Below, piece by piece: positions 1 through 7,201 of a stretch of 64,000 bases of DNA; the stretch's first letter is position 1, and each line of letters starts with the position of its first letter. The stretch lies in the sequence record OQ174504.1; one strand, given 5' to 3'. Position numbers and translations under genes: made by a program. The notes under the pieces were generated by a model that did no database searches, was not told the origin of the DNA, and saw nothing but the letters and a program-made list of their open reading frames with translations. This DNA comes from Escherichia phage REP5.

Positions 1-6
1 ATGTCT

Positions 7-81
7 GGTACAGGTGGAGGGAATTGAACCCATCGTCTTACTGATTAAGAGTCAGCCGCATAACCATTTTGCTACACCTGC
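7..81 (-). tRNA. tRNA, anticodon CUU by hand fold (Lys?)
   Basis: Reverse complement folds as cloverleaf: acceptor GCAGGTG/CACCTGT, T-arm GGTTCAATTCC, anticodon loop CUCUUAA, CCA encoded. Confidence 0.55.
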
Positions 82-88
82 ATTAATT

Positions 89-166
89 TGGTAGGAGACA
101 AGGGATTCGAACCCTCAAACATCTCGTTCTAAGCGAGATAGGTTTACCAATTACCGTCAATCTCCC
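89..166 (-). tRNA. tRNA, isotype unresolved (anticodon loop CUUAGAA, UAG?)
   Basis: Acceptor GGGAGAT/GTCTCCT, T-arm GAGGGTTCGAATCCCTT, CCA encoded; D-arm poorly paired by eye. Confidence 0.5.
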
Positions 167-421
167 ATTAAGTCTTTTTAGAGAACTTCTAAGAACCTAA
201 GCAACAAGGTTCCACAACAAGCTGTAATAACCTTAGAAGCCCTCTAAAAAGACCTAAAAAGGTCTTTGCATAGTCTTGTTTAATCCGGTGACTAGAACCT
301 TTGGAGAGCTTGATATTATCTCTTCTCCGTGACACCTACTAGGTGTTTTATCAATGTGTACAACAATACACGCGGTATACCAAAGCAACATCCGAATGAA
401 GCTTGGCTTTAAATCTTATTA

Positions 422-508
422 GGCGGTAAGTAAAGGAGTCGAACCCTCACCGTATCTCTACAGTGGCAACTGTTTTCAAGACAGTTTGGCTACCATTAGC
501 CGCTACCT
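422..508 (-). tRNA. tRNA with long variable arm, anticodon UGA (Ser?)
   Basis: Anticodon arm ACTGT-CUUGAAA-ACAGT resembles tRNA-Ser; T-loop TTCGACT; acceptor pairing imperfect. Confidence 0.5.
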
Positions 509-524
509 ACCCCTAATAAGACTT

Positions 525-607
525 TGGCATGGGACGGAGGAGTTGAACCCCTTTGAAACGGTGTTGGAAGCCGTTGCTCATGCCTTAGAGTCTTAACATC
601 GTCCCAT
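525..607 (-). tRNA. tRNA-like element, atypical anticodon arm (9-nt loop), isotype unresolved
   Basis: Acceptor ATGGGAC/GTCCCAT plus CCA, T-arm GGGGTTCAACTCC; stem AACGG/CCGTT encloses a 9-nt loop. Confidence 0.4.
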
Positions 608-749
608 ACTATAATTCGAAGCTTACCGTATTATCTCAACACTGTAAAGCCCCTTCTCAGATTATTTACATGTTCTGGAAAACATGAGATACAGACCACC
701 TCCCTACAGGAAGACCCGCTTAGGTCGTCTAAGTAATCTGCTAACTATT

Positions 750-826
750 TGGCACACCCTACAGGATTCGAACCTGTAACTCAATGATTAGAAGTCATTT
801 GCTCTGTCCAGTTGAACTAAGGGTGC
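750..826 (-). tRNA. tRNA-Arg (anticodon UCU)
   Basis: Acceptor GCACCCT/AGGGTGT, anticodon arm AATGA-CUUCUAA-TCATT, T-arm ACAGGTTCGAATCCTGT, CCA encoded. Confidence 0.6.
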
Positions 827-1073
827 ATTAATCTTTAAAGACTCTCTTAGAAAGCCCTTAAAGATGCCCACCTTATTAATCATACCGTGGGCTAGTACGC
901 CAAATTCTTTGATGAGGGATTGGAAGACCTCACTGGTGTTTAGCCTATCAAGCTACTGCCAGAAAAACATTGTCGTTTGCATTTATTTTAAATTTGCAAA
1001 ATAGACGCTACGCAACGAAAACTAAGGTTACTATAAAGTGGTCACATCTCAGTGTCAACAACTTTATTGAAAT

Positions 1074-1149
1074 TGGTACTGTGAGAAGGATTCGAACCTT
1101 CTGCCTTTCGGTTATCAGCCGAATGCACATCCATATGTGCTTTCACAGC
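1074..1149 (-). tRNA. tRNA-Ile (anticodon GAU)
   Basis: Acceptor GCTGTGA/TCACAGT, D-stem GCAC/GTGC, anticodon arm TTCGG-CUGAUAA-CCGAA, T-arm GAAGGTTCGAATCCTTC. Confidence 0.6.
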
Positions 1150-1151
1150 TT

Positions 1152-1229
1152 TGGAGGTTCAGATGGGAATCGAACCCACATTCATAGGGCTTATGAGACC
1201 CTTGCATTACCTTATCTGCGACTGAACCA
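1152..1229 (-). tRNA. tRNA with CAU anticodon (Met or Ile2)
   Basis: Acceptor GGTTCAG/CTGAACC, anticodon arm AGGGT-CUCAUAA-GCCCT with three G-C pairs, T-arm GTGGGTTCGATTCCCAT. Confidence 0.55.
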
Positions 1230-1232
1230 TTT

Positions 1233-1308
1233 TGGTAGAAGTGGAGGGATTCGAACCCATCGCCTGTCAGATTAAAAGTCTGCCGCATCACCATTCTGCT
1301 ACACTTCC
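1233..1308 (-). tRNA. tRNA-Lys (anticodon UUU)
   Basis: Acceptor GGAAGTG/CACTTCT, anticodon loop CUUUUAA, T-arm GGGTTCGAATCCC, CCA encoded. Confidence 0.55.
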
Positions 1309-1312
1309 ATTA

Positions 1313-1456
1313 AATTATCTTTGTAGATAAGCTACCCAGACTTGCTTAAGGTCTGTAGCGATGTGCCTTGTTGGGTTTAAATCTAGAATTTACCCTTTCA
1401 CCCTTTGTGGTCGCATACTCACAGGTAAGCTTAATAACTTATCTACAAAGATAATT
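1313..1456 (-). ncRNA. Candidate structured small RNA or processing element (19-bp inverted repeat enclosing 106 nt)
   Basis: aattatctttgtagataag at 1313-1331 is the exact reverse complement of 1438-1456; lies between tRNA genes. Confidence 0.3.
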
Positions 1457-1739
1457 ACCAGACCGTTGTTTATCATCTTAAGTGCTACCATTACACCAAC
1501 TCGACATCTGCCGAGTGAAGGAATCGAACCTTCACCTTTTCTTTACCGGAGAAATAGATTGTTTAAGTTTTGCTGTAAACGGTCTTCTGTAAATTTGTTG
1601 AGCCAGACCAAGTTTTAAATTTTTCAAAATTAAATTGGCTTGAAATTTTCATACGTTCTTGCTGTATTTGGTCTTCTGCTCCTTTAAAGAATACTCGTAA
1701 GAACTCTTTAAGGGAGGGGCTAAATAGCCCTCTCAAAAT

Positions 1740-1825
1740 TGGCGGCTACGATGAGACTTGAACTCACATCATCTCCCAATATCCTTTTACGTGGGAGTAT
1801 TTTAACCAAATTAAACTACATAACC
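1740..1825 (-). tRNA. tRNA-like element, 86 nt, anticodon arm unresolved
   Basis: Acceptor GGTTATG/CGTAGCC with G-U pairs, T-arm GTGAGTTCAAGTCTCAT, CCA encoded; central stem CTCCCA/TGGGAG encloses 11-nt loop. Confidence 0.4.
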
Positions 1826-1830
1826 TTTAT

Positions 1831-1918
1831 TGGTGTGCCGTGTAGGAGTCGAACCTACCGAGTCTCAATGACAAGGGATTTACAGTCCCCACCGCTACCA
1901 TCTACGGGATAACGACAC
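1831..1918 (-). tRNA. tRNA-Tyr (anticodon GUA), long variable arm
   Basis: Acceptor GTGTCGT/ACGGCAC, anticodon arm GGGGA-CUGUAAA-TCCCT, variable arm, T-arm TAGGTTCGACTCCTA, CCA encoded. Confidence 0.6.
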
Positions 1919-1929
1919 ATTTAAATTTG

Positions 1930-2003
1930 CGGTTAGTCAGGGATTCGAACCCTGTGCCATTCGCTTAACAGGCGACCGCACATACCTTATGTGCTTCCTA
2001 ACC
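1930..2003 (-). tRNA. tRNA-Asn (anticodon GUU)
   Basis: Acceptor GGTTAG/CTAACC, D-stem GCAC/GTGC, anticodon loop CUGUUAA, T-arm CAGGGTTCGAATCCCTG; CCA not encoded. Confidence 0.55.
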
Positions 2004-2087
2004 ATATTTAGTATTACCAGACCGTATCTTTCAATTTTTTCCGCTAAAAATTTGATAAGTGTTGCTGTAAACGGTCTTCTGTAAAAT

Positions 2088-2163
2088 TGGAGGCGGGTGC
2101 AGGAGTCGAACCTGCCGATACCATGCTAATGAGACATGTGAGACGCCCTTTCTCTATACCCGC
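2088..2163 (-). tRNA. tRNA with CAU anticodon (Met/fMet or Ile2), 1:72 mismatch
   Basis: Anticodon arm CATGT-CUCAUUA-GCATG, T-arm GCAGGTTCGACTCCTGC, acceptor GCGGGT/ACCCGC with unpaired first position. Confidence 0.5.
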
Positions 2164-2255
2164 AATTCTTAATGACCAGACCAAATCTCTTCTTTGTCCG
2201 ATTTACCTTCAGATGAATAAGATTAAGTTTGCTGTAATTGGTCTTCTGTCAAAAC

Positions 2256-2333
2256 TGGCGTTCCAGAAGGGATTTGAACCCTCAGATATCCACTTTGAAA
2301 GAGTGGTGACTATACCATTTTGTCTACTGGAAC
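2256..2333 (-). tRNA. tRNA-Glu (anticodon UUC)
   Basis: Acceptor GTTCCAG/CTGGAAC, anticodon arm CCACT-CUUUCAA-AGTGG, T-arm GAGGGTTCAAATCCCTT, CCA encoded. Confidence 0.6.
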
Positions 2334-2340
2334 ATTAATT

Positions 2341-2420
2341 TGGTCTCCGTTGAAGGATTTGAACCCTCGACCCCTTGCTCCCAAAGCAAGTGCTGCTAAA
2401 CCAAACTGAGCTAAACGGAG
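2341..2420 (-). tRNA. tRNA-Pro (anticodon UGG)
   Basis: Anticodon arm CTTGC-UUUGGGA-GCAAG, T-arm GAGGGTTCAAATCCTTC, acceptor CTCCGTT/AACGGAG, CCA encoded. Confidence 0.6.
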
Positions 2421-2585
2421 ATAAACTTTTCAAACTCTATGTAACCACTTTAACATTATTTTTTAGTGGTTGTCAAGAACTTTTTTAAAATATTTTTCAG
2501 TATCTTAGAAAAGCTCTCATTTCGTTTCTATGTAGAACATATTAAAGGGTATTAAACACATTGTCAATACCCTTTTTAAAACTTT

Positions 2586-4001
2586 TTACCAGATGTAACG
2601 GTCAATCGTTACTGCTTTGAGCATTACGCTGATTGGGTCAAACTTCTCACCACCAAGCAGAGCTTTTAAAGTGGCTGGAGAGAACCCTGATACCATTGCT
2701 ACACCGTTATCCTTAACAGATACTTCGCAAGTACCATTACGGTTTGCTAAGTACCAGAATACCAGTTGTGGCATCTCATATCCAGCTTTTTTGTACTTAC
2801 TCTGAATTGCTTCAAAGTTTGTACGACCGTTAGCTCCATCAACCTGATTGAACTCCATATCGGAGAAGATGATAAGCTTACTTGGCATATCTTTCTGAGT
2901 CAAGTTGTTTCTCTTACCTGTCTCAAGGATGCGGTCAAAAGCTGCTTGTAAGTTAGTTGAACCATATTCAACATGTCGCATCACCTGACGGTGACGGTTC
3001 TTTAAATCGCCACTCAGTTCGATGAAATGAGGGTTTGTTGAATAAACCATTAACTCGTTCTTAAAGCAACCTGTATTGCGTTCTGCTACATACAAGGCAA
3101 GTGATACACCAATATCAAGGGCAGTAATTGAGCCAAAATTCACCCAAGACATTGAACTTGAAACATCAGACATACATAGAATGTTTTCACCCTCTGCCAT
3201 CCAGTTTGGTAGTGCTTTCCACTGCTCATTAGCAACATCTGCATTACCATACTTAACAGATTTAATCACATCGTATGGATAAACAGCACCAGCGTTAATC
3301 TTAGTCTCACCCTTTGATAAGGACTCGATGTAAGCTTTGTAACGCTCTCCATCTTTACGGTTAAACAGTTTTTGGTAACGTGCAGCAGCAAGTGAAGGAA
3401 TCTTACTGTAGTCAATATTACCAAACTCATTAGCAGAGATTTTTTGCTCAACTGTATCAGATAGTGCAGACAATAGTGTGCGGTACTCTTTCTCACTCAA
3501 GTTGGCAAACTTGCAGAAACGTTTTACAAACTGCTTATGACGTGGTTTGACTCGTGGTAACCACTTAGCTGCTAAACCTGCTGTTGCAGGGTCTAGTAAA
3601 GCTGCTTCTAAATGTTTGAAGGCATCTGTCTCGAAACGAGTACCTACAAAGATTTTGAAGTCATCAAAACGACCAAGTTCTGCAATCTTATCCATAATGC
3701 GAAGAACCTGCGTAGGCTCTAAAACTTTATCTTCAATCGCTTGAAGTAAAACAGTTCGGAAAGCTTTACGCTCACCCATACCCTCTCGTACATCTCGCAT
3801 ATGCAGTAAAATACGAACTGCAACATCAACATCCTCATGCAAAGCTTTGTAGAACAAGTCTGGTAAGATTTCTACATTGCTACGGCTAGAACCAGCAGCT
3901 TTGTAAAAGTCCACAAGAGCAGACATTGATGAAGTATGGTTTACAGCACCATTTTCAGTTCGACCTGCATGAAGGTGCGCATGTTTAAATAACTCGCTCA
4001 T
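2586..4001 (-). CDS. vWA-domain protein with MIDAS-like motif (possibly Ro60/TROVE-like or DUF2828-like)
   Basis: 471 aa ORF; DVSSS metal-ion-site motif followed by vWA-like strands; helical N-terminal half; co-oriented with downstream tRNA cluster. Confidence 0.6.
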   Translation of the reverse strand: MSELFKHAHLHAGRTENGAVNHTSSMSALVDFYKAAGSSRSNVEILPDLFYKALHEDVDVAVRILLHMRDVREGMGERKAFRTVLLQAIEDKVLEPTQVLRIMDKIAELGRFDDFKIFVGTRFETDAFKHLEAALLDPATAGLAAKWLPRVKPRHKQFVKRFCKFANLSEKEYRTLLSALSDTVEQKISANEFGNIDYSKIPSLAAARYQKLFNRKDGERYKAYIESLSKGETKINAGAVYPYDVIKSVKYGNADVANEQWKALPNWMAEGENILCMSDVSSSMSWVNFGSITALDIGVSLALYVAERNTGCFKNELMVYSTNPHFIELSGDLKNRHRQVMRHVEYGSTNLQAAFDRILETGKRNNLTQKDMPSKLIIFSDMEFNQVDGANGRTNFEAIQSKYKKAGYEMPQLVFWYLANRNGTCEVSVKDNGVAMVSGFSPATLKALLGGEKFDPISVMLKAVTIDRYIW

Positions 4002-4081
4002 ATTTTACTCTCTTCTCTCATTGTTGTTTGATGTGACAGACTTTAGAGCAACTTTGTAGAGTCTGTCAACACCTTTTAAAA

Positions 4082-4453
4082 TTATTTTTTGAGAGTCGCT
4101 ACAGCAGAGAACGTTGGCTTGTTATCTGTCTGAGACTGACCACCATTATCAGGGGTCTTCTTAGTGTCTGCTGCAATCGCTTTCATCTCACCTGCTGAGT
4201 GAGTCATGATAGTTTTACCAGCCTCCATCATCGACTTCAGGTTTACATCGTCAGTCGTTAAACCGAACTCTGCAAGCTTATCAGCGTCCCTTGTAACAAT
4301 CGCCTCAAACAACTTTGCAGCAAACTCAGCAGAATTATCAATGGTCAGTTGAGCTTTTACGAGTGAGCTTTTGTTACGAGAGCCTTTTGGTCTTCCAGAT
4401 GGGTTTCCAGACTGGCCTTTTTTAAACTGGCCTTTGTTTGTTCTGTTTTTCAT
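4082..4453 (-). CDS. Hypothetical protein with GQSGNPSGRPKG N-terminal motif
   Basis: 123 aa ORF upstream of the vWA gene; basic N-terminus. Confidence 0.55.
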   Translation of the reverse strand: MKNRTNKGQFKKGQSGNPSGRPKGSRNKSSLVKAQLTIDNSAEFAAKLFEAIVTRDADKLAEFGLTTDDVNLKSMMEAGKTIMTHSAGEMKAIAADTKKTPDNGGQSQTDNKPTFSAVATLKK

Positions 4454-5855: not shown

Positions 5856-6737
5856 ATGATTAAAGCAAAGACTTACCCAGACTTCAAAGAGTTTGTAAAA
5901 GGTTTTGTTGCAAATGTAAAGGCTGGTAAGAGATATGATTTTAGAACATATCAAGAGGCTATTTTACCGCTTACCTATAGCTCGTATTGGCCTGAAGCTG
6001 ATATTGCAGAAGTTAAGAAGTTTGACTATAAACCAGACTATAAAGTTCCATTTAGTGATGAGTTGCTTTACAGCATTGGTGCTCAAATGAGAACTTCTGA
6101 CTTCTTCATGGACTTACAATATGCAATTATCAATGGTAAAGACGTTGATACAGTTTATTGTGAATGGCTGGCAAGAGTTAAACCATTCTCAATGTTGAAT
6201 GCTAAGTTGAAGGATGCTGTCAAGACACCAGAAATCACTCAGCAACCAACCAATCAAACAGTAAATGAAGGTGGTACACTTACCCTAAGCATTATTGCAA
6301 CCAATGCAACTGGGTATCAATGGAAGAAAGATGGTTCTGACATTCCTTCGGCTACAGAAGCTACCTATAGCAAGTCTGGCGCACTGCCAGCAGATGCAGG
6401 TTCATACACTTGCGTTGTAACAGGTGCAGGTGGTTCTGTCACTTCCAACCCTGCAACAGTTACTGTGAACGCACTTCCAGTAATCACTCAACAGCCAACC
6501 AATCAAGAAATCAATGAAGGTGAGACCTTAACGCTGAATGTTGTGGCAACAGGTGCAACAGGTTACCAGTGGAAGAAAGGTGAGGAAGACATCCTCAATG
6601 CAACCTCTGCAACTTACACCAAAGAAGGTGCAACTGCTGCTGATTCAGGAAGCTACACCTGTGTAGTTACTGGTGCAGGTGGTTCTGTAACATCTAACGC
6701 AGCAACAGTTACAGTTAATCCAGTAGGAGGGGCATAA
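5856..6737 (+). CDS. Protein with two tandem Ig-like domains at C-terminus
   Basis: 293 aa; two near-identical ~80 aa repeats (ITQQPTNQ..GSYTCVVTGAGGSVTSN..TVTVN); stop overlaps lysozyme start (TAATG). Confidence 0.7.
   Translation: MIKAKTYPDFKEFVKGFVANVKAGKRYDFRTYQEAILPLTYSSYWPEADIAEVKKFDYKPDYKVPFSDELLYSIGAQMRTSDFFMDLQYAIINGKDVDTVYCEWLARVKPFSMLNAKLKDAVKTPEITQQPTNQTVNEGGTLTLSIIATNATGYQWKKDGSDIPSATEATYSKSGALPADAGSYTCVVTGAGGSVTSNPATVTVNALPVITQQPTNQEINEGETLTLNVVATGATGYQWKKGEEDILNATSATYTKEGATAADSGSYTCVVTGAGGSVTSNAATVTVNPVGGA
6237..6722 (+). repeat. Tandem 243-bp coding repeat (two Ig-like domain copies)
   Basis: Direct nucleotide and peptide repeat 6237-6479 / 6480-6722. Confidence 0.7.
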
Positions 6738-7201
6738 TGCAACTCTCAAGAAAAGGTTTAGAAGCTATTAAGTTCTTTGAAGGCATTAAGCTAGAGGCTT
6801 ACGAAGACTCTGCCGGAATCCCAACAATCGGGTATGGTACAATCCGTATTGACGGAAAACCTGTTAAGATGGGTATGAAGATTACCGCTGAACAAGCTGA
6901 ACAGTATCTTCTTGCAGATGTTGAAAAGTTCGTTGCAGCAGTGAACAAAGCCATCAAGGTTCCAACTTCTCAGAATGAGTTTGATGCACTTGTAAGTGAA
7001 ACATACAACATTGGTATCACAGCTATGCAGGACTCTACATTTATCAAGCGCCACAATGCTGGTAATAAGGTCGGTTGTGCAGAAGCTATGCAGTGGTGGA
7101 ACAAGGTTACAGTAAAAGGTAAGAAGGTCACTTCAAACGGCCTGAAAAACAGACGTAGAATGGAAGCTGACATTTATCTTGACAGTGTATATCCAAAGTA
7201 A
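6737..7201 (+). CDS. Lysozyme (T4 e-type, GH24) endolysin
   Basis: 154 aa; EAYEDSAGIPTIGYGT catalytic region typical of T4-type lysozyme. Confidence 0.8.
   Translation: MQLSRKGLEAIKFFEGIKLEAYEDSAGIPTIGYGTIRIDGKPVKMGMKITAEQAEQYLLADVEKFVAAVNKAIKVPTSQNEFDALVSETYNIGITAMQDSTFIKRHNAGNKVGCAEAMQWWNKVTVKGKKVTSNGLKNRRRMEADIYLDSVYPK

What the first reader, a model, noticed from the sequence alone, without database searches (positions are those of the whole stretch)
2586..4001. vWA/MIDAS protein co-transcribed toward the tRNA cluster
A 471 aa protein with a helical N-terminal half and a C-terminal vWA domain carrying DVSSS lies immediately upstream of, and in the same orientation as, the tRNA array. That architecture resembles Ro60/TROVE proteins, which bind tRNA-like Y RNAs. 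The family assignment (TROVE versus DUF2828-like) is not resolved here.
Basis: inference. Interest (0 to 1): 0.5.

Follow-up and report, generated by a model that had tools for sequence, protein, structure and literature searches.

The report
Phage Ro60-like protein with partner RNAs
The gene encodes a ring-shaped, Ro60-like RNA-binding protein whose near-identical relative is already known to defeat a bacterial anti-phage defence, and just downstream, hidden among the tRNA genes, are four unannotated small RNAs that look like its partner RNAs and share their signature with an enigmatic RNA class of social amoebae.

Summary

New here: four unannotated RNA units lie in the first 1 kb of the tRNA array. 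All share one frame: a terminal stem, (U)UACAGCAA after the 5' strand, and CUG after the 3' strand. Three are short hairpins. One carries a permuted tRNA-like module of YrlA design, with covariation. The same frame lies beside DUF2828 genes in most of 155 diverse viral and bacterial loci, strand-specifically, and within phage tRNA arrays. It equals the Rfam consensus of Dictyostelium Class I RNAs, though scores stay below Rfam thresholds.

Best reading: a divergent Ro60/Y-RNA-type particle. RNA binding is inferred, not shown, and the anti-Ppl activity does not need phage RNAs.

The parts
2586..4001 (-). Gene for a 471-aa Ro60-like protein: helical HEAT-type ring plus a C-terminal vWA domain with a complete MIDAS. 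Family DUF2828+DUF7788, PHROG 850. Ortholog of Bas63 gp130.
4040..4069 (-). Promoter-like site (TTGACA-18-TAAAGT) upstream of the ORF
   Evidence: consensus match only
2539..2567 (-). Promoter-like site (TTGACA-17-TAATAT) 19 nt after the ORF stop, lying inside a hairpin. Invariant in three genera.
2447..2476 (-). Second promoter-like site (TTGACA-18-TAAAGT) just before tRNA-Pro. Conserved in three genera.
2177..2244 (-). RNA unit 1: short hairpin RNA with the frame AGACCAA / UUACAGCAA / UUGGUCU-G. It lies between tRNA-Glu and tRNA-Met with gaps of about 11-12 nt on each side.
2018..2077 (-). RNA unit 2: short hairpin RNA with the frame AGACCGU / UUACAGCAA / ACGGUCU-G and an outer UUAC/GUAA helix. 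It lies between tRNA-Met and tRNA-Asn.
1604..1674 (-). RNA unit 3: short hairpin RNA with the frame AGACCAA / AUACAGCAA / UUGGUCU-G
1455..1589 (-). RNA unit 4: the same frame enclosing a circularly permuted, closed tRNA-like module in YrlA-like order: anticodon/V-like hairpin, T-arm GAAGGUUCGAUUCCUUC, 7-bp acceptor-like stem closed by a tetraloop, D-arm GUGUAAUGGUAGCAC. Part of it is annotated in GenBank as a 131-nt 'tRNA-Thr'.
6..2420 (-). tRNA array (12 ARAGORN tRNAs plus one tRNA-like element at 1743-1825) in which the four units are embedded. The array continues beyond the window start.
4082..4453 (-). Conserved upstream neighbour: 123-aa DUF5681 / phrog_4114 protein, present in the same position in all Ounavirinae examined. 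Role unknown, and its membership of the system is uncertain.

Best explanation
The ORF encodes a divergent Ro60-type RNA-binding ring: a HEAT-repeat toroid closed by a vWA/MIDAS domain. It is the REP6 ortholog of Bas63 gp130, a phage counter-defence protein. I propose it forms a Ro60/Y-RNA-type particle with four small RNAs encoded within 1.2 kb downstream on the same strand. These RNAs are transcribed with the tRNA array from conserved promoters placed just after the ORF. They are released when RNase P and the 3' tRNA-processing enzymes cut out the flanking tRNAs. All four share one frame: a terminal stem with invariant outer A-U and G-C pairs, the single-stranded motif (U)UACAGCAA directly after the 5' strand, and CUG after the 3' strand. 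This frame would be the protein-binding site, in the way that the conserved terminal helix of Y RNAs is the Ro60-binding site. The variable interior is the cargo. It is short in units 1-3 and a permuted tRNA mimic in unit 4, and it would recruit or occupy tRNA-recognising host factors, such as nucleases, modification or repair enzymes, or PNPase as in known Ro60 particles. SHOWN here: the fold, the family, the orthology, the existence, conservation and covariation of the RNAs, and their strand-specific linkage to this gene family and to tRNA arrays. SHOWN by others for the 97%-identical ortholog: it counters the Ppl defence and can do so when moved into T7. INFERRED: that the protein binds these RNAs, how they are processed, and what the particle does.
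Against: No binding data exist. gp130 alone rescues T7, which has none of these RNAs, on Ppl, so the one known activity does not need phage-encoded RNA. Ten of 14 well-framed units found by pattern have no DUF2828 gene within the stored stretch, and 8 of those sit in tRNA arrays, so the RNAs could have a life of their own. Rfam YrlA does not reach E<=10 on unit 4, and the published Ro-binding motif GNCGAAN0-1G is absent. The Vibrio ValKK3 and mycobacteriophage loci show no convincing unit. The covariation table for the frame stem is partly circular, because units were selected for pairing. Bas63 has only 2 of the 4 units.
Confidence: 0.6

Rival explanations
1. Protein-only counter-defence. The Ro60-like protein inhibits Ppl directly, for example through its MIDAS face or by sequestering a host nucleic acid that Ppl senses. 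The neighbouring RNA units are unrelated residents of the tRNA array, and the gene merely tends to sit beside such arrays.
For: gp130 expressed alone from a plasmid, or inserted in T7, restores plaquing on Ppl. MIDAS sites in vWA domains classically bind protein ligands, and the role of the MIDAS in Ro60 is unknown. Most pattern-selected framed units are in tRNA arrays with no gene in the visible stretch.
Against: Many gene loci have framed units directly abutting the gene with no tRNA within 4 kb (L022, L033, L042, L052, L054, L066, L071, L077). 59 of 69 bacterial loci have the motif within 700 nt upstream, always on the gene strand. An intact full-length Ro60 RNA-binding fold would be surprising for a pure protein inhibitor.
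Confidence: 0.2
2. The units are autonomous tRNA-array small RNAs, such as tRNA mimics or decoys for anticodon nucleases, or processing punctuation. They act without the Ro60-like protein. The shared frame serves RNase processing or stability.
For: Units 1 and 2 lie about 10-14 nt from flanking tRNAs. The L210 unit is flush between two tRNAs. Cargo is often tRNA-like.
Against: This does not explain the invariant single-stranded UACAGCAA. It does not explain units next to the gene in loci without tRNAs, or units in the 5' leader of the gene itself in Campylobacter and Vibrio phages.
Confidence: 0.13
3. The conserved motif works at the DNA level or in cis: a promoter or operator, or a 5'-leader regulatory or autoregulatory element of the DUF2828 mRNA, and not a free small RNA.
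For: In bacterial loci the units lie mostly 0-250 nt upstream of the gene. In ValKK3 the motif lies between a good sigma-70 promoter and the Shine-Dalgarno sequence. 'TTGAC' often precedes the motif.
Against: The position matrix shows no conserved -35 or -10. 'TTGAC' is often just the CUUG end of the previous tandem unit. In the window and in many viral loci the units are downstream of the gene. The stems covary, which is an RNA-level constraint. Autoregulation would in any case still mean that the protein binds this RNA.
Confidence: 0.04
4. It is a canonical Ro60/TROVE ortholog that binds canonical YrlA-type Y RNAs or the tRNAs themselves.
For: Ro60 fold. tRNA-like unit 4 lies within 1.2 kb on the same strand.
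Against: No TROVE profile match in 68 family members at E<=10. No PDB sequence match. Rfam YrlA and Y_RNA do not match in the window. The published Ro-binding motif is replaced by a different frame.
Confidence: 0.03

Closest known systems
Bas63 (Escherichia phage JohannRWettstein) gp130, PhageMaP preprint PMC11482910
   Same: Ortholog: 97% identical, 471 aa, with the same neighbours (DUF5681 gene upstream, tRNA-Pro/Glu/Met downstream). The authors already noted 'high structural similarity to Ro60' and its position upstream of the tRNAs, and guessed that some tRNA genes might be Y RNAs. They showed that it counters the Ppl defence and that this activity transfers to T7.
   Different: They did not identify any RNA. 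The candidate RNAs found here are unannotated units between the tRNAs, not the annotated tRNAs. Bas63 has 2 of them and REP6 has 4. In Bas63 the tRNA-like unit lies under the tiny opposite-strand ORF bas63_0137.
Ro60 (TROVE2) / Rsr with Y RNAs, including bacterial YrlA/YrlB and Thermus phage phiRo60 with Yrl1/Yrl2
   Same: The same overall fold: HEAT ring closed by a vWA domain with MIDAS. Small RNA genes lie next to the protein gene on the same strand. The RNAs are modular, with a conserved terminal stem plus variable cargo, and one cargo is a tRNA mimic ordered T-arm / closed stem / D-arm exactly as in YrlA. A phage precedent exists for the RNP and for capture of a host nuclease.
   Different: No detectable sequence similarity to TROVE. 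The protein is 471 aa, against about 530 for animal Ro60. The RNA frame is AG-stem/UACAGCAA/stem-CUG, not the GGUCCGA or GNCGAA bulged helix. Rfam YrlA scores are below threshold or absent.
Dictyostelium Class I RNAs (Rfam RF01414; Kjellin et al. 2021, PMC7919456)
   Same: A short stem joining the 5' and 3' ends, the motif CUUACAGCAA directly after the 5' strand, a variable interior, a CUG(U) 3' end and a length of about 60 nt. The Rfam consensus GaUcuC-CUUACAGCAAUu...GagAuC-UG compares with the phage unit GGUUU-CUUACAGCAAUU...GAAACC-UG. Eight full-length matches to the model were found (17.9-30.7 bits), including window units 1 and 2 with the exact boundaries derived independently.
   Different: All scores are below Rfam's 41.5-bit cutoff. 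Class I RNAs are eukaryotic, have their own DUSE promoter and were reported as unique to dictyostelids. Their only proven direct binder is the RRM protein Rnp1A/CIBP. Whether dictyostelids have a DUF2828 protein could not be tested here.
Mycobacteriophage 'Ro-like RNA binding protein' (cluster L, e.g. Rumpelstiltskin gp54) and 'RNA-binding protein' annotations from PHROG 850
   Same: The same protein family: full-length homologs at about 33% identity. The annotation reflects the same remote Ro60 resemblance.
   Different: The label is by inference only. No unit of the kind described here was detected next to the Rumpelstiltskin gene at the sensitivity used.

Membership tests
Pfam DUF2828 (PF11443) + DUF7788 (PF25043) / PHROG 850 | Profile match above the curated cutoff | tested here: met
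   DUF7788 148.9 bits (cutoff 27.1). DUF2828 102.5 bits (cutoff 29). phrog_850 4e-183 over the full length. All 68 aligned relatives match both Pfam models.
Ro60 / TROVE (protein) | Sequence match to the TROVE domain profile (PF05731) | tested here: not met
   No TROVE hit at E<=1 for the protein or at E<=10 for any of 68 relatives. No PDB sequence hit with the single sequence or the profile.
Ro60 / TROVE (protein) | Fold: alpha-helical HEAT-repeat ring closed by a C-terminal vWA domain | tested here: met
Ro60 / TROVE (protein) | vWA domain with a MIDAS motif (DxSxS...T...D) | tested here: met
   D279, S281, S283, T349 and D381 are invariant. 16 of 68 relatives weakly hit Pfam vWA_Ro60 (best 1.7e-4).
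Ro60 / TROVE (protein) | Binds Y RNA on the outer surface and misfolded RNA ends in the central cavity | not testable with these tools
   Needs RIP/CLIP, EMSA or a structure.
Bas63 gp130-type anti-Ppl counter-defence protein | Orthology to the experimentally tested protein | tested here: met
   457 of 471 residues identical, no gaps, same gene order.
Bas63 gp130-type anti-Ppl counter-defence protein | Restores plaquing on a Ppl-expressing host | not testable with these tools
   Shown for Bas63 gp130 only.
YrlA-type bacterial Y RNA (Rfam RF02553), for unit 4 (1455-1589) | Module order: T-arm, then an acceptor-like stem closed by a loop, then the D-arm, all enclosed by a stem formed by the RNA's two ends | tested here: met
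   MFE and RNAalifold structures. The design is described in Chen et al. 2014.
YrlA-type bacterial Y RNA (Rfam RF02553), for unit 4 (1455-1589) | Covariance-model score at or above Rfam's gathering score (69 bits) | tested here: not met
   No YrlA match at E<=10 in 1309-1745 or 1450-2260. Related units in FBKp34 and L034 reach 39 bits.
YrlA-type bacterial Y RNA (Rfam RF02553), for unit 4 (1455-1589) | GNCGAAN0-1G Ro-binding motif near the 5' end | tested here: not met
   The 5' part reads UUACAGAAGACCGUUUACAGCAA, which has no such motif. A different conserved frame takes its place.
YrlA-type bacterial Y RNA (Rfam RF02553), for unit 4 (1455-1589) | Encoded within 4 kb of the Ro60-type gene on the same strand | tested here: met
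   About 1.0 kb downstream of the ORF stop, minus strand.
Dictyostelium Class I RNA (Rfam RF01414), for units 1-3 | Short stem joining the 5' and 3' ends, the conserved motif (CC)UUACAGCAA adjacent to the 5' strand, a variable interior and a CUG(U) 3' end | tested here: met
   Units 1-3 read AGACCnn-(U/A)UACAGCAA-...-nnGGUCU-G. The Rfam consensus is shown, and the published description is.
Dictyostelium Class I RNA (Rfam RF01414), for units 1-3 | Covariance-model score at or above the gathering score (41.5 bits) | tested here: not met
   Unit 1 scores 19.7 bits and unit 2 scores 17.9 bits, both matching the full model length. The best phage unit elsewhere scores 30.7 bits.
Dictyostelium Class I RNA (Rfam RF01414), for units 1-3 | Dictyostelid origin with a DUSE promoter about 60 nt upstream | tested here: not met
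   This is a phage locus with sigma-70-type promoter-like sites.

The most novel reading that the evidence does not exclude
RNAs with the Class I signature (terminal stem + UACAGCAA + CUG) are the dedicated partner RNAs, in effect the 'Y RNAs', of the DUF2828 branch of Ro60-like proteins, from phages and bacteria to dictyostelid amoebae. On this reading the abundant Dictyostelium Class I RNAs, thought unique to social amoebae and of unknown mechanism, would be the eukaryotic members of this RNP family. [quoted passage not shown] In phages the particle would carry tRNA-mimic cargo to disarm RNA- or tRNA-directed immunity.
Probability: 0.25. Interest if true: 0.9.

Novelty: new variant of a known kind. 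Interest (0 to 1): 0.68.

Why it matters
The protein itself is not news. Its Ro60-like fold and anti-Ppl role were reported for the Bas63 ortholog. What matters is that concrete, testable partner RNAs now exist for a protein family found in about 1.4% of sequenced phages (709 of 50,697 records) and in many bacterial genomes. This would define a second Ro60/Y-RNA-type system, unrelated in sequence, built on a different RNA recognition frame. It gives a handle on how gp130-type proteins work in counter-defence, and it flags unannotated small RNAs inside phage tRNA arrays. It also offers an unexpected and cheap test of a 20-year-old question: what the abundant Class I RNAs of Dictyostelium bind and do.

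Tried and rejected
1. TROVE membership by sequence. Pfam at E<=10 on 68 relatives, and PDB sequence and profile searches, all came back negative.
2. Rfam Y_RNA or YrlA in the window. None was found.
3. The idea that the annotated tRNAs are the Y RNAs. They are ordinary tRNAs by ARAGORN and Rfam. The odd 131-nt 'tRNA-Thr' of the GenBank record is instead unit 4.
4. Coding-strand composition as the cause of the motif enrichment. Rejected, because the motif is 6-fold denser outside ORFs.
5. The motif as a promoter. Rejected, because there is no conserved -35 or -10 and the stems covary.
6. My first stem criterion (any stem of at least 6 bp within 170 nt). It was too permissive, with 42% of random sites passing, and was replaced by a strict frame.
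7. Covariance model R1 inside the window. It did not discriminate, because the window's units have long interiors: unit 1 scored 20.3 bits at E 0.019, alongside two likely false hits.
8. A reverse search by pattern alone. Most of the 120 hits were chance matches inside ORFs, and only the framed subset was informative.
9. Fold search of AFDB for eukaryotic relatives. The library was unavailable.
10. PhageMaP supplementary fitness data for g137, which overlaps the Bas63 tRNA-like unit. The files are not held.
11. Avesson 2011 and Aspegren 2004. Neither is held. DDB_G0281243 is not described elsewhere in the library.
12. Literature on DUF2828, on YrlA in such phages, on the Ppl mechanism and on the motif string. 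Nothing relevant was found.
Full report
**1. The observation**

The ORF listing gives an ATG-initiated ORF of 471 aa at 2586..4001 on the minus strand. ARAGORN finds 12 tRNA genes at 6..2420, all on the minus strand, so they are immediately downstream in the same orientation. Rfam adds a tRNA-like element at 1743-1825. DVSSS is at residues 279-283. In an alignment of 68 homologs that go down to about 41% identity, D279, S281, S283, T349 and D381, a complete MIDAS, are invariant.

**2. Where the window comes from**

The first 6 kb are 100% identical to Escherichia phages REP6 and REP7 (Felixounavirus, Ounavirinae). The gene is annotated 'RNA-binding protein', 'vWFA protein' or 'hypothetical' in different records.

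**3. Family and fold of the protein**

- **Sequence family.** Pfam assigns DUF7788 (1.7e-43) and DUF2828 (3.1e-29). PHROGs assigns phrog_850 'RNA-binding protein' at 4e-183 over the full length. NCBIfam assigns nothing.
- **No TROVE match.** There is no TROVE match for the protein, or for any of 68 relatives at E<=10. 16 of the 68 weakly match Pfam 'Ro60 vWA domain'. Sequence and profile searches of the PDB find nothing.
- **Fold.** The AlphaFold2 model is confident (pLDDT 90, pTM 0.89). The 12 best Foldseek matches in the PDB are all full-length Ro60 structures: Thermus phage phiLo Ro60, Xenopus and human Ro60 with and without RNA, and D. radiodurans Rsr (E 8e-9 to 9e-7). Isolated vWA domains follow at E>=2e-3.

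By sequence the protein is DUF2828/DUF7788, and by fold it is a Ro60 look-alike.

**4. What is already known**

A 2024 preprint (PhageMaP, PMC11482910) mapped gene essentiality in Bas63, a Felixounavirus. It reports the following:
- g130 counters the Ppl defence system (an ATPase + PHP-domain protein).
- Deleting g130 gives tiny plaques on Ppl hosts, and complementation restores them.
- gp130 from a plasmid, or inserted into T7, restores T7 plaquing on Ppl.
- gp130 has 'high structural similarity to Ro60' and lies upstream of the tRNAs, 'some' of which 'are possibly Y RNAs'.

bas63_0130 is 471 aa, is 97% identical to the window ORF and has the same neighbours. The protein-level interpretation is therefore published and comes with a phenotype. 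No mechanism for Ppl, and no functional literature on DUF2828, was found.

The family is widespread. tblastn finds it in 709 of 50,697 phage records, including large myoviruses of Vibrio, Listeria, Staphylococcus, Enterococcus, Bacillus and Campylobacter. It also finds 95 mycobacteriophages, where it is annotated 'Ro-like RNA binding protein'.

**5. Is it co-transcribed with the tRNAs?**

Between the stop codon and tRNA-Pro lie two promoter-like sites: TTGACA-17-TAATAT at 2567-2539 and TTGACA-18-TAAAGT at 2476-2447. As a set, consensus promoter matches are not more frequent than in shuffles. This 165-nt spacer, however, is 91% identical across Felixounavirus, Suspvirus and Mooglevirus, with both elements invariant. 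The array most probably has its own promoters. Read-through from the ORF is possible but not needed.

**6. Four unannotated RNA units in the array**

- **The repeat.** Reading the minus strand showed a repeat in the spacers. The motif CAGAAGACCNNNTACAGCAA occurs exactly 4 times in 64 kb (0.02 expected), all on the minus strand at 1570-2248. Each copy is followed 60-120 nt later by nnGGUCUGG, which pairs with AGACCnn.
- **Units 1-3.** These (2244-2177, 2077-2018, 1674-1604) are short hairpins.
- **Unit 4.** This unit (1589-1455) folds (−34.5 kcal/mol, z −2.4) into an outer UUAC/GUAA helix, a small internal loop and an 8-bp helix AGACCGUU/AACGGUCU. These enclose a four-way junction. The junction holds an anticodon/V-like hairpin, a canonical T-arm (GAAGG-UUCGAUU-CCUUC), a 7-bp acceptor-like stem closed by a tetraloop, and a D-arm (GUGU-AAUGGUA-GCAC).
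- **Comparison with YrlA.** That is a circularly permuted, closed tRNA, which is the design of bacterial YrlA Y RNAs. REP6's GenBank record calls part of it a 131-nt 'tRNA-Thr'.
- **Conservation.** Unit 4 is conserved in 252 phage records, nearly all Ounavirinae hosts, and mostly unannotated. Across three genera, RNAalifold predicts 31 pairs. The closed stem has 3 pairs with compensatory double changes (CUCGGC/GUCGAG, CACG/CGUG, CCCUUC/GAAGGG) and none broken. The T and D arms are invariant.
- **Release.** Units 1 and 2 lie about 10-14 nt from the flanking tRNAs, so ordinary tRNA 5' and 3' processing would release them. This step is an inference.

**7. The same RNA frame accompanies the gene family elsewhere**

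- **Klebsiella phage FBKp34** (Stephanstirmvirinae; protein 52% identical). Three tandem units lie between the gene and a tRNA array: GAAGAU-UUACAGCAA…AUCUUC-UG, AGAAGAA-AUACAGCAA…UUCUUCU-G and AGAAGCU-UUACAGCAA…[T-arm, closed stem, D-arm]…AGCUUCU-G. Rfam scores the third as YrlA over the full model (39.6 bits, E 2.9e-5).
- **Campylobacter phage Los1.** A unit ends 22 nt before the start codon, next to unannotated tRNAs.
- **Vibrio phage ValKK3.** The motif lies in the 5' leader of the gene.
- **Listeria phage LP-083-2.** The gene lies between a tRNA array and an RtcB / RNA-ligase / HD-phosphohydrolase cluster. This recalls the bacterial rsr-yrlBA-rtcBA operon.

**8. Statistics on loci chosen only for the gene**

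| Measure | 75 diverse viral loci (39-47% identity, 640 kb) | 80 bacterial/MAG loci (33-42% identity, 505 kb) |
|---|---|---|
| TACAGCAA, gene strand vs other strand | 71 vs 14 | 75 vs 8 |
| ACAGCAA, gene strand vs other strand | 118 vs 44 | 225 vs 39 |
| Full frame passing, gene strand vs other strand | 39/118 vs 0/44 | 51/225 vs 2/39 |
| Full frame expected by chance | 0.36 | 1.05 |
| Covariance-model R1 hits at E<=1 | 34, all on the gene strand | 8, all on the gene strand |
| Motif density outside vs inside ORFs, per kb | 0.51 vs 0.08 | 1.18 vs 0.19 |

- The full frame is AG+N5 pairing with N5+CU, then G or UG.
- In the bacterial set, 59 of 69 loci with enough sequence have the core motif within 700 nt upstream of the gene, peaking in the first 250 nt.
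- Chance density of the motif would be about 0.06 per kb.
- No conserved -35 or -10 accompanies the motif.
- In the window, 20 ACAGCAA sites exist and exactly the four units pass.
- Cargo varies: about 25 nt of unstructured sequence, permuted tRNA-like modules, tRNA-like modules in normal order, and other conserved inserts.
- tRNAs flank the gene in 19 of 60 viral loci, and all 110 of those tRNAs are on the gene strand. Many loci with units have no tRNA.

**9. Reverse test**

I searched the viral collection for AAAGGN{4,5}TACAGCAAT alone, which gave 121 sites in 120 stretches.
- 107 sites lack the frame. 85 of them lie inside long ORFs, so they are chance matches, and 1 has the gene nearby.
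- 14 sites have the frame. 12 are non-coding, and 4 have a DUF2828 gene in the same stretch on the same strand.
- Of the 10 framed units without a visible gene, 8 lie inside tRNA arrays of 6-19 tRNAs on the same strand.

So the gene is almost always near such RNAs, but the RNAs are also ordinary residents of phage tRNA arrays. Whether those phages carry the gene elsewhere could not be seen. This keeps an 'autonomous RNA' rival alive.

**10. The Class I connection**

Rfam has no family for these units except weak, full-length matches to RF01414, 'Class I RNA from Dictyostelium'. The matches are two FBKp34 units (25.2 and 23.6 bits), L052 (30.7), L111 (28.1), L134 (26.7) and window units 1 and 2 (19.7 and 17.9), the last two with exactly the boundaries I had derived. 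All are below the 41.5-bit cutoff.

The printed alignment shows why they match. The Rfam consensus is GaUcuC-CUUACAGCAAUu…GagAuC-UG, and the phage unit reads GGUUU-CUUACAGCAAUU…GAAACC-UG.

The published definition of Class I RNAs fits feature by feature. It specifies 42-65 nt, a short stem joining the ends, a conserved 11-nt motif adjacent to the 5' strand with T3, C6, C9, A10 and A11 nearly invariant, a variable rest, and a conserved CUGU 3' end. Those authors found no such RNA outside dictyostelids.

[quoted passage not shown] I could not obtain that protein's sequence or domains. The resemblance is therefore a strong lead, not a demonstrated homology.

**11. Mechanism**

The best-supported reading is a divergent Ro60/Y-RNA-type particle. 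The ring protein binds the conserved frame, and the cargo engages other factors, with a tRNA mimic in unit 4. The closest precedent is phage phiRo60, which binds two adjacent phage Y-like RNAs and captures host PNPase. Comparative genomics had already linked TROVE proteins in large phages to RNA repair with a tRNA-like partner.

The caveat is important. gp130 alone protects T7 from Ppl, so the known activity needs no phage RNA. Either host RNAs substitute, or the RNP serves a different purpose such as tRNA-directed defences or RNA quality control during infection.

- **Shown:** fold, family, orthology, the RNA elements and their covariation, and the linkage statistics.
- **Inferred:** binding, processing and function.

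**12. Verdict**

The finding as written is correct but largely already known: it is a new member of the gp130 / DUF2828 Ro60-like family. Following it up uncovers a previously undescribed, widespread class of small RNAs tied to this protein family and to phage tRNA arrays. That class has an unexpected identity of design with Dictyostelium Class I RNAs. This is what raises the interest.

Noticed in passing
window 1743-1825 (minus strand): A tRNA-like element scores 44 bits with Rfam tRNA but is not called by ARAGORN. REP6's GenBank record calls it 'tRNA-OTHER', and the same position is tRNA-Asp(GTC) in Bas63. In REP6 the anticodon loop region looks enlarged (…CUCCCACGUAAAAGGAUAUUGGGAG…), so the tRNA is possibly disrupted or carries an insertion.
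   Followed up: partly
L012:3429-3980 (Listeria phage LP-083-2, NC_024383): A ROOL RNA (Rfam RF03087, 87.4 bits, E 3e-16, just under the 99.1-bit cutoff) lies between the tRNA array and the DUF2828-type gene. Downstream is an RNA-repair cluster (RtcB-like ligase, RNA ligase, HD phosphohydrolase, 'tRNA amidotransferase').
   Followed up: no
L111:1007-1068 (Micavibrio sp. MAG contig): A bona fide 'freshwater-1' RNA (RF02979, 82.7 bits, above the 72-bit cutoff) sits among tRNAs and Class-I-like units about 270 nt upstream of the DUF2828-type gene. This gives a possible genomic context for an orphan Rfam motif.
   Followed up: no
L010:7003-7113; L141:1855-1963; L111:796-904: 'Long tRNAs' of about 110 nt have an insertion of 35-51 nt in the anticodon region that contains the (U)UACAGCA(A) motif. 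The same motif is thus grafted into otherwise normal-order tRNA scaffolds.
   Followed up: no
L020:3276-3371, L021:3133-3233, L025:149-282, L029:1265-1375, L039:3734-3829: A second conserved cargo type sits inside framed units: …aaccuuucuggaggggaaagcaaaaacucgcc… It is shared by several unrelated viral contigs, and its fold and role are unknown.
   Followed up: no
L128 and L134 (Chloroflexi MAG contigs): Very large tRNA arrays (about 25-30 tRNAs within 7 kb, all on one strand) surround the DUF2828-type gene and its framed units.
   Followed up: no
window 2544-2575 and 2447-2480 (minus strand): Each promoter-like element downstream of the ORF is embedded in an inverted repeat (AAGGGUAUUGACA…AAUACCCUU; AACCACU…AGUGGUU), followed by a conserved (C/U)UACAUAG. 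The same arrangement precedes the RNA units of Klebsiella phage FBKp34 (AGGGGUUGACA…CCCCU…ACAUAG). It may be a shared early-promoter architecture.
   Followed up: partly
L002:22749-22901 (Bas63, bas63_0137) and window about 1361-1618 (plus-strand ORFs): Small 'hypothetical protein' ORFs annotated, or callable, on the opposite strand overlap the tRNA-like unit 4. They are most likely annotation artefacts lying over an RNA gene.
   Followed up: partly
L041:257-707 and L261:2976-3383: Phage-encoded tmRNA genes occur in the same tRNA/small-RNA neighbourhoods as the DUF2828 gene or the framed units.
   Followed up: no
window 5856-6737 (plus strand): A 293-aa protein has two near-identical tandem Ig-like repeats (…ITQQPTNQ…GATGYQWKK…GSYTCVVTGAGGSVTSN…). 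It is annotated as a tail or Ig-like domain protein and is followed by the endolysin at 6737-7201. It is ordinary, but its length varies between relatives (1,383 nt in Bas63).
   Followed up: no
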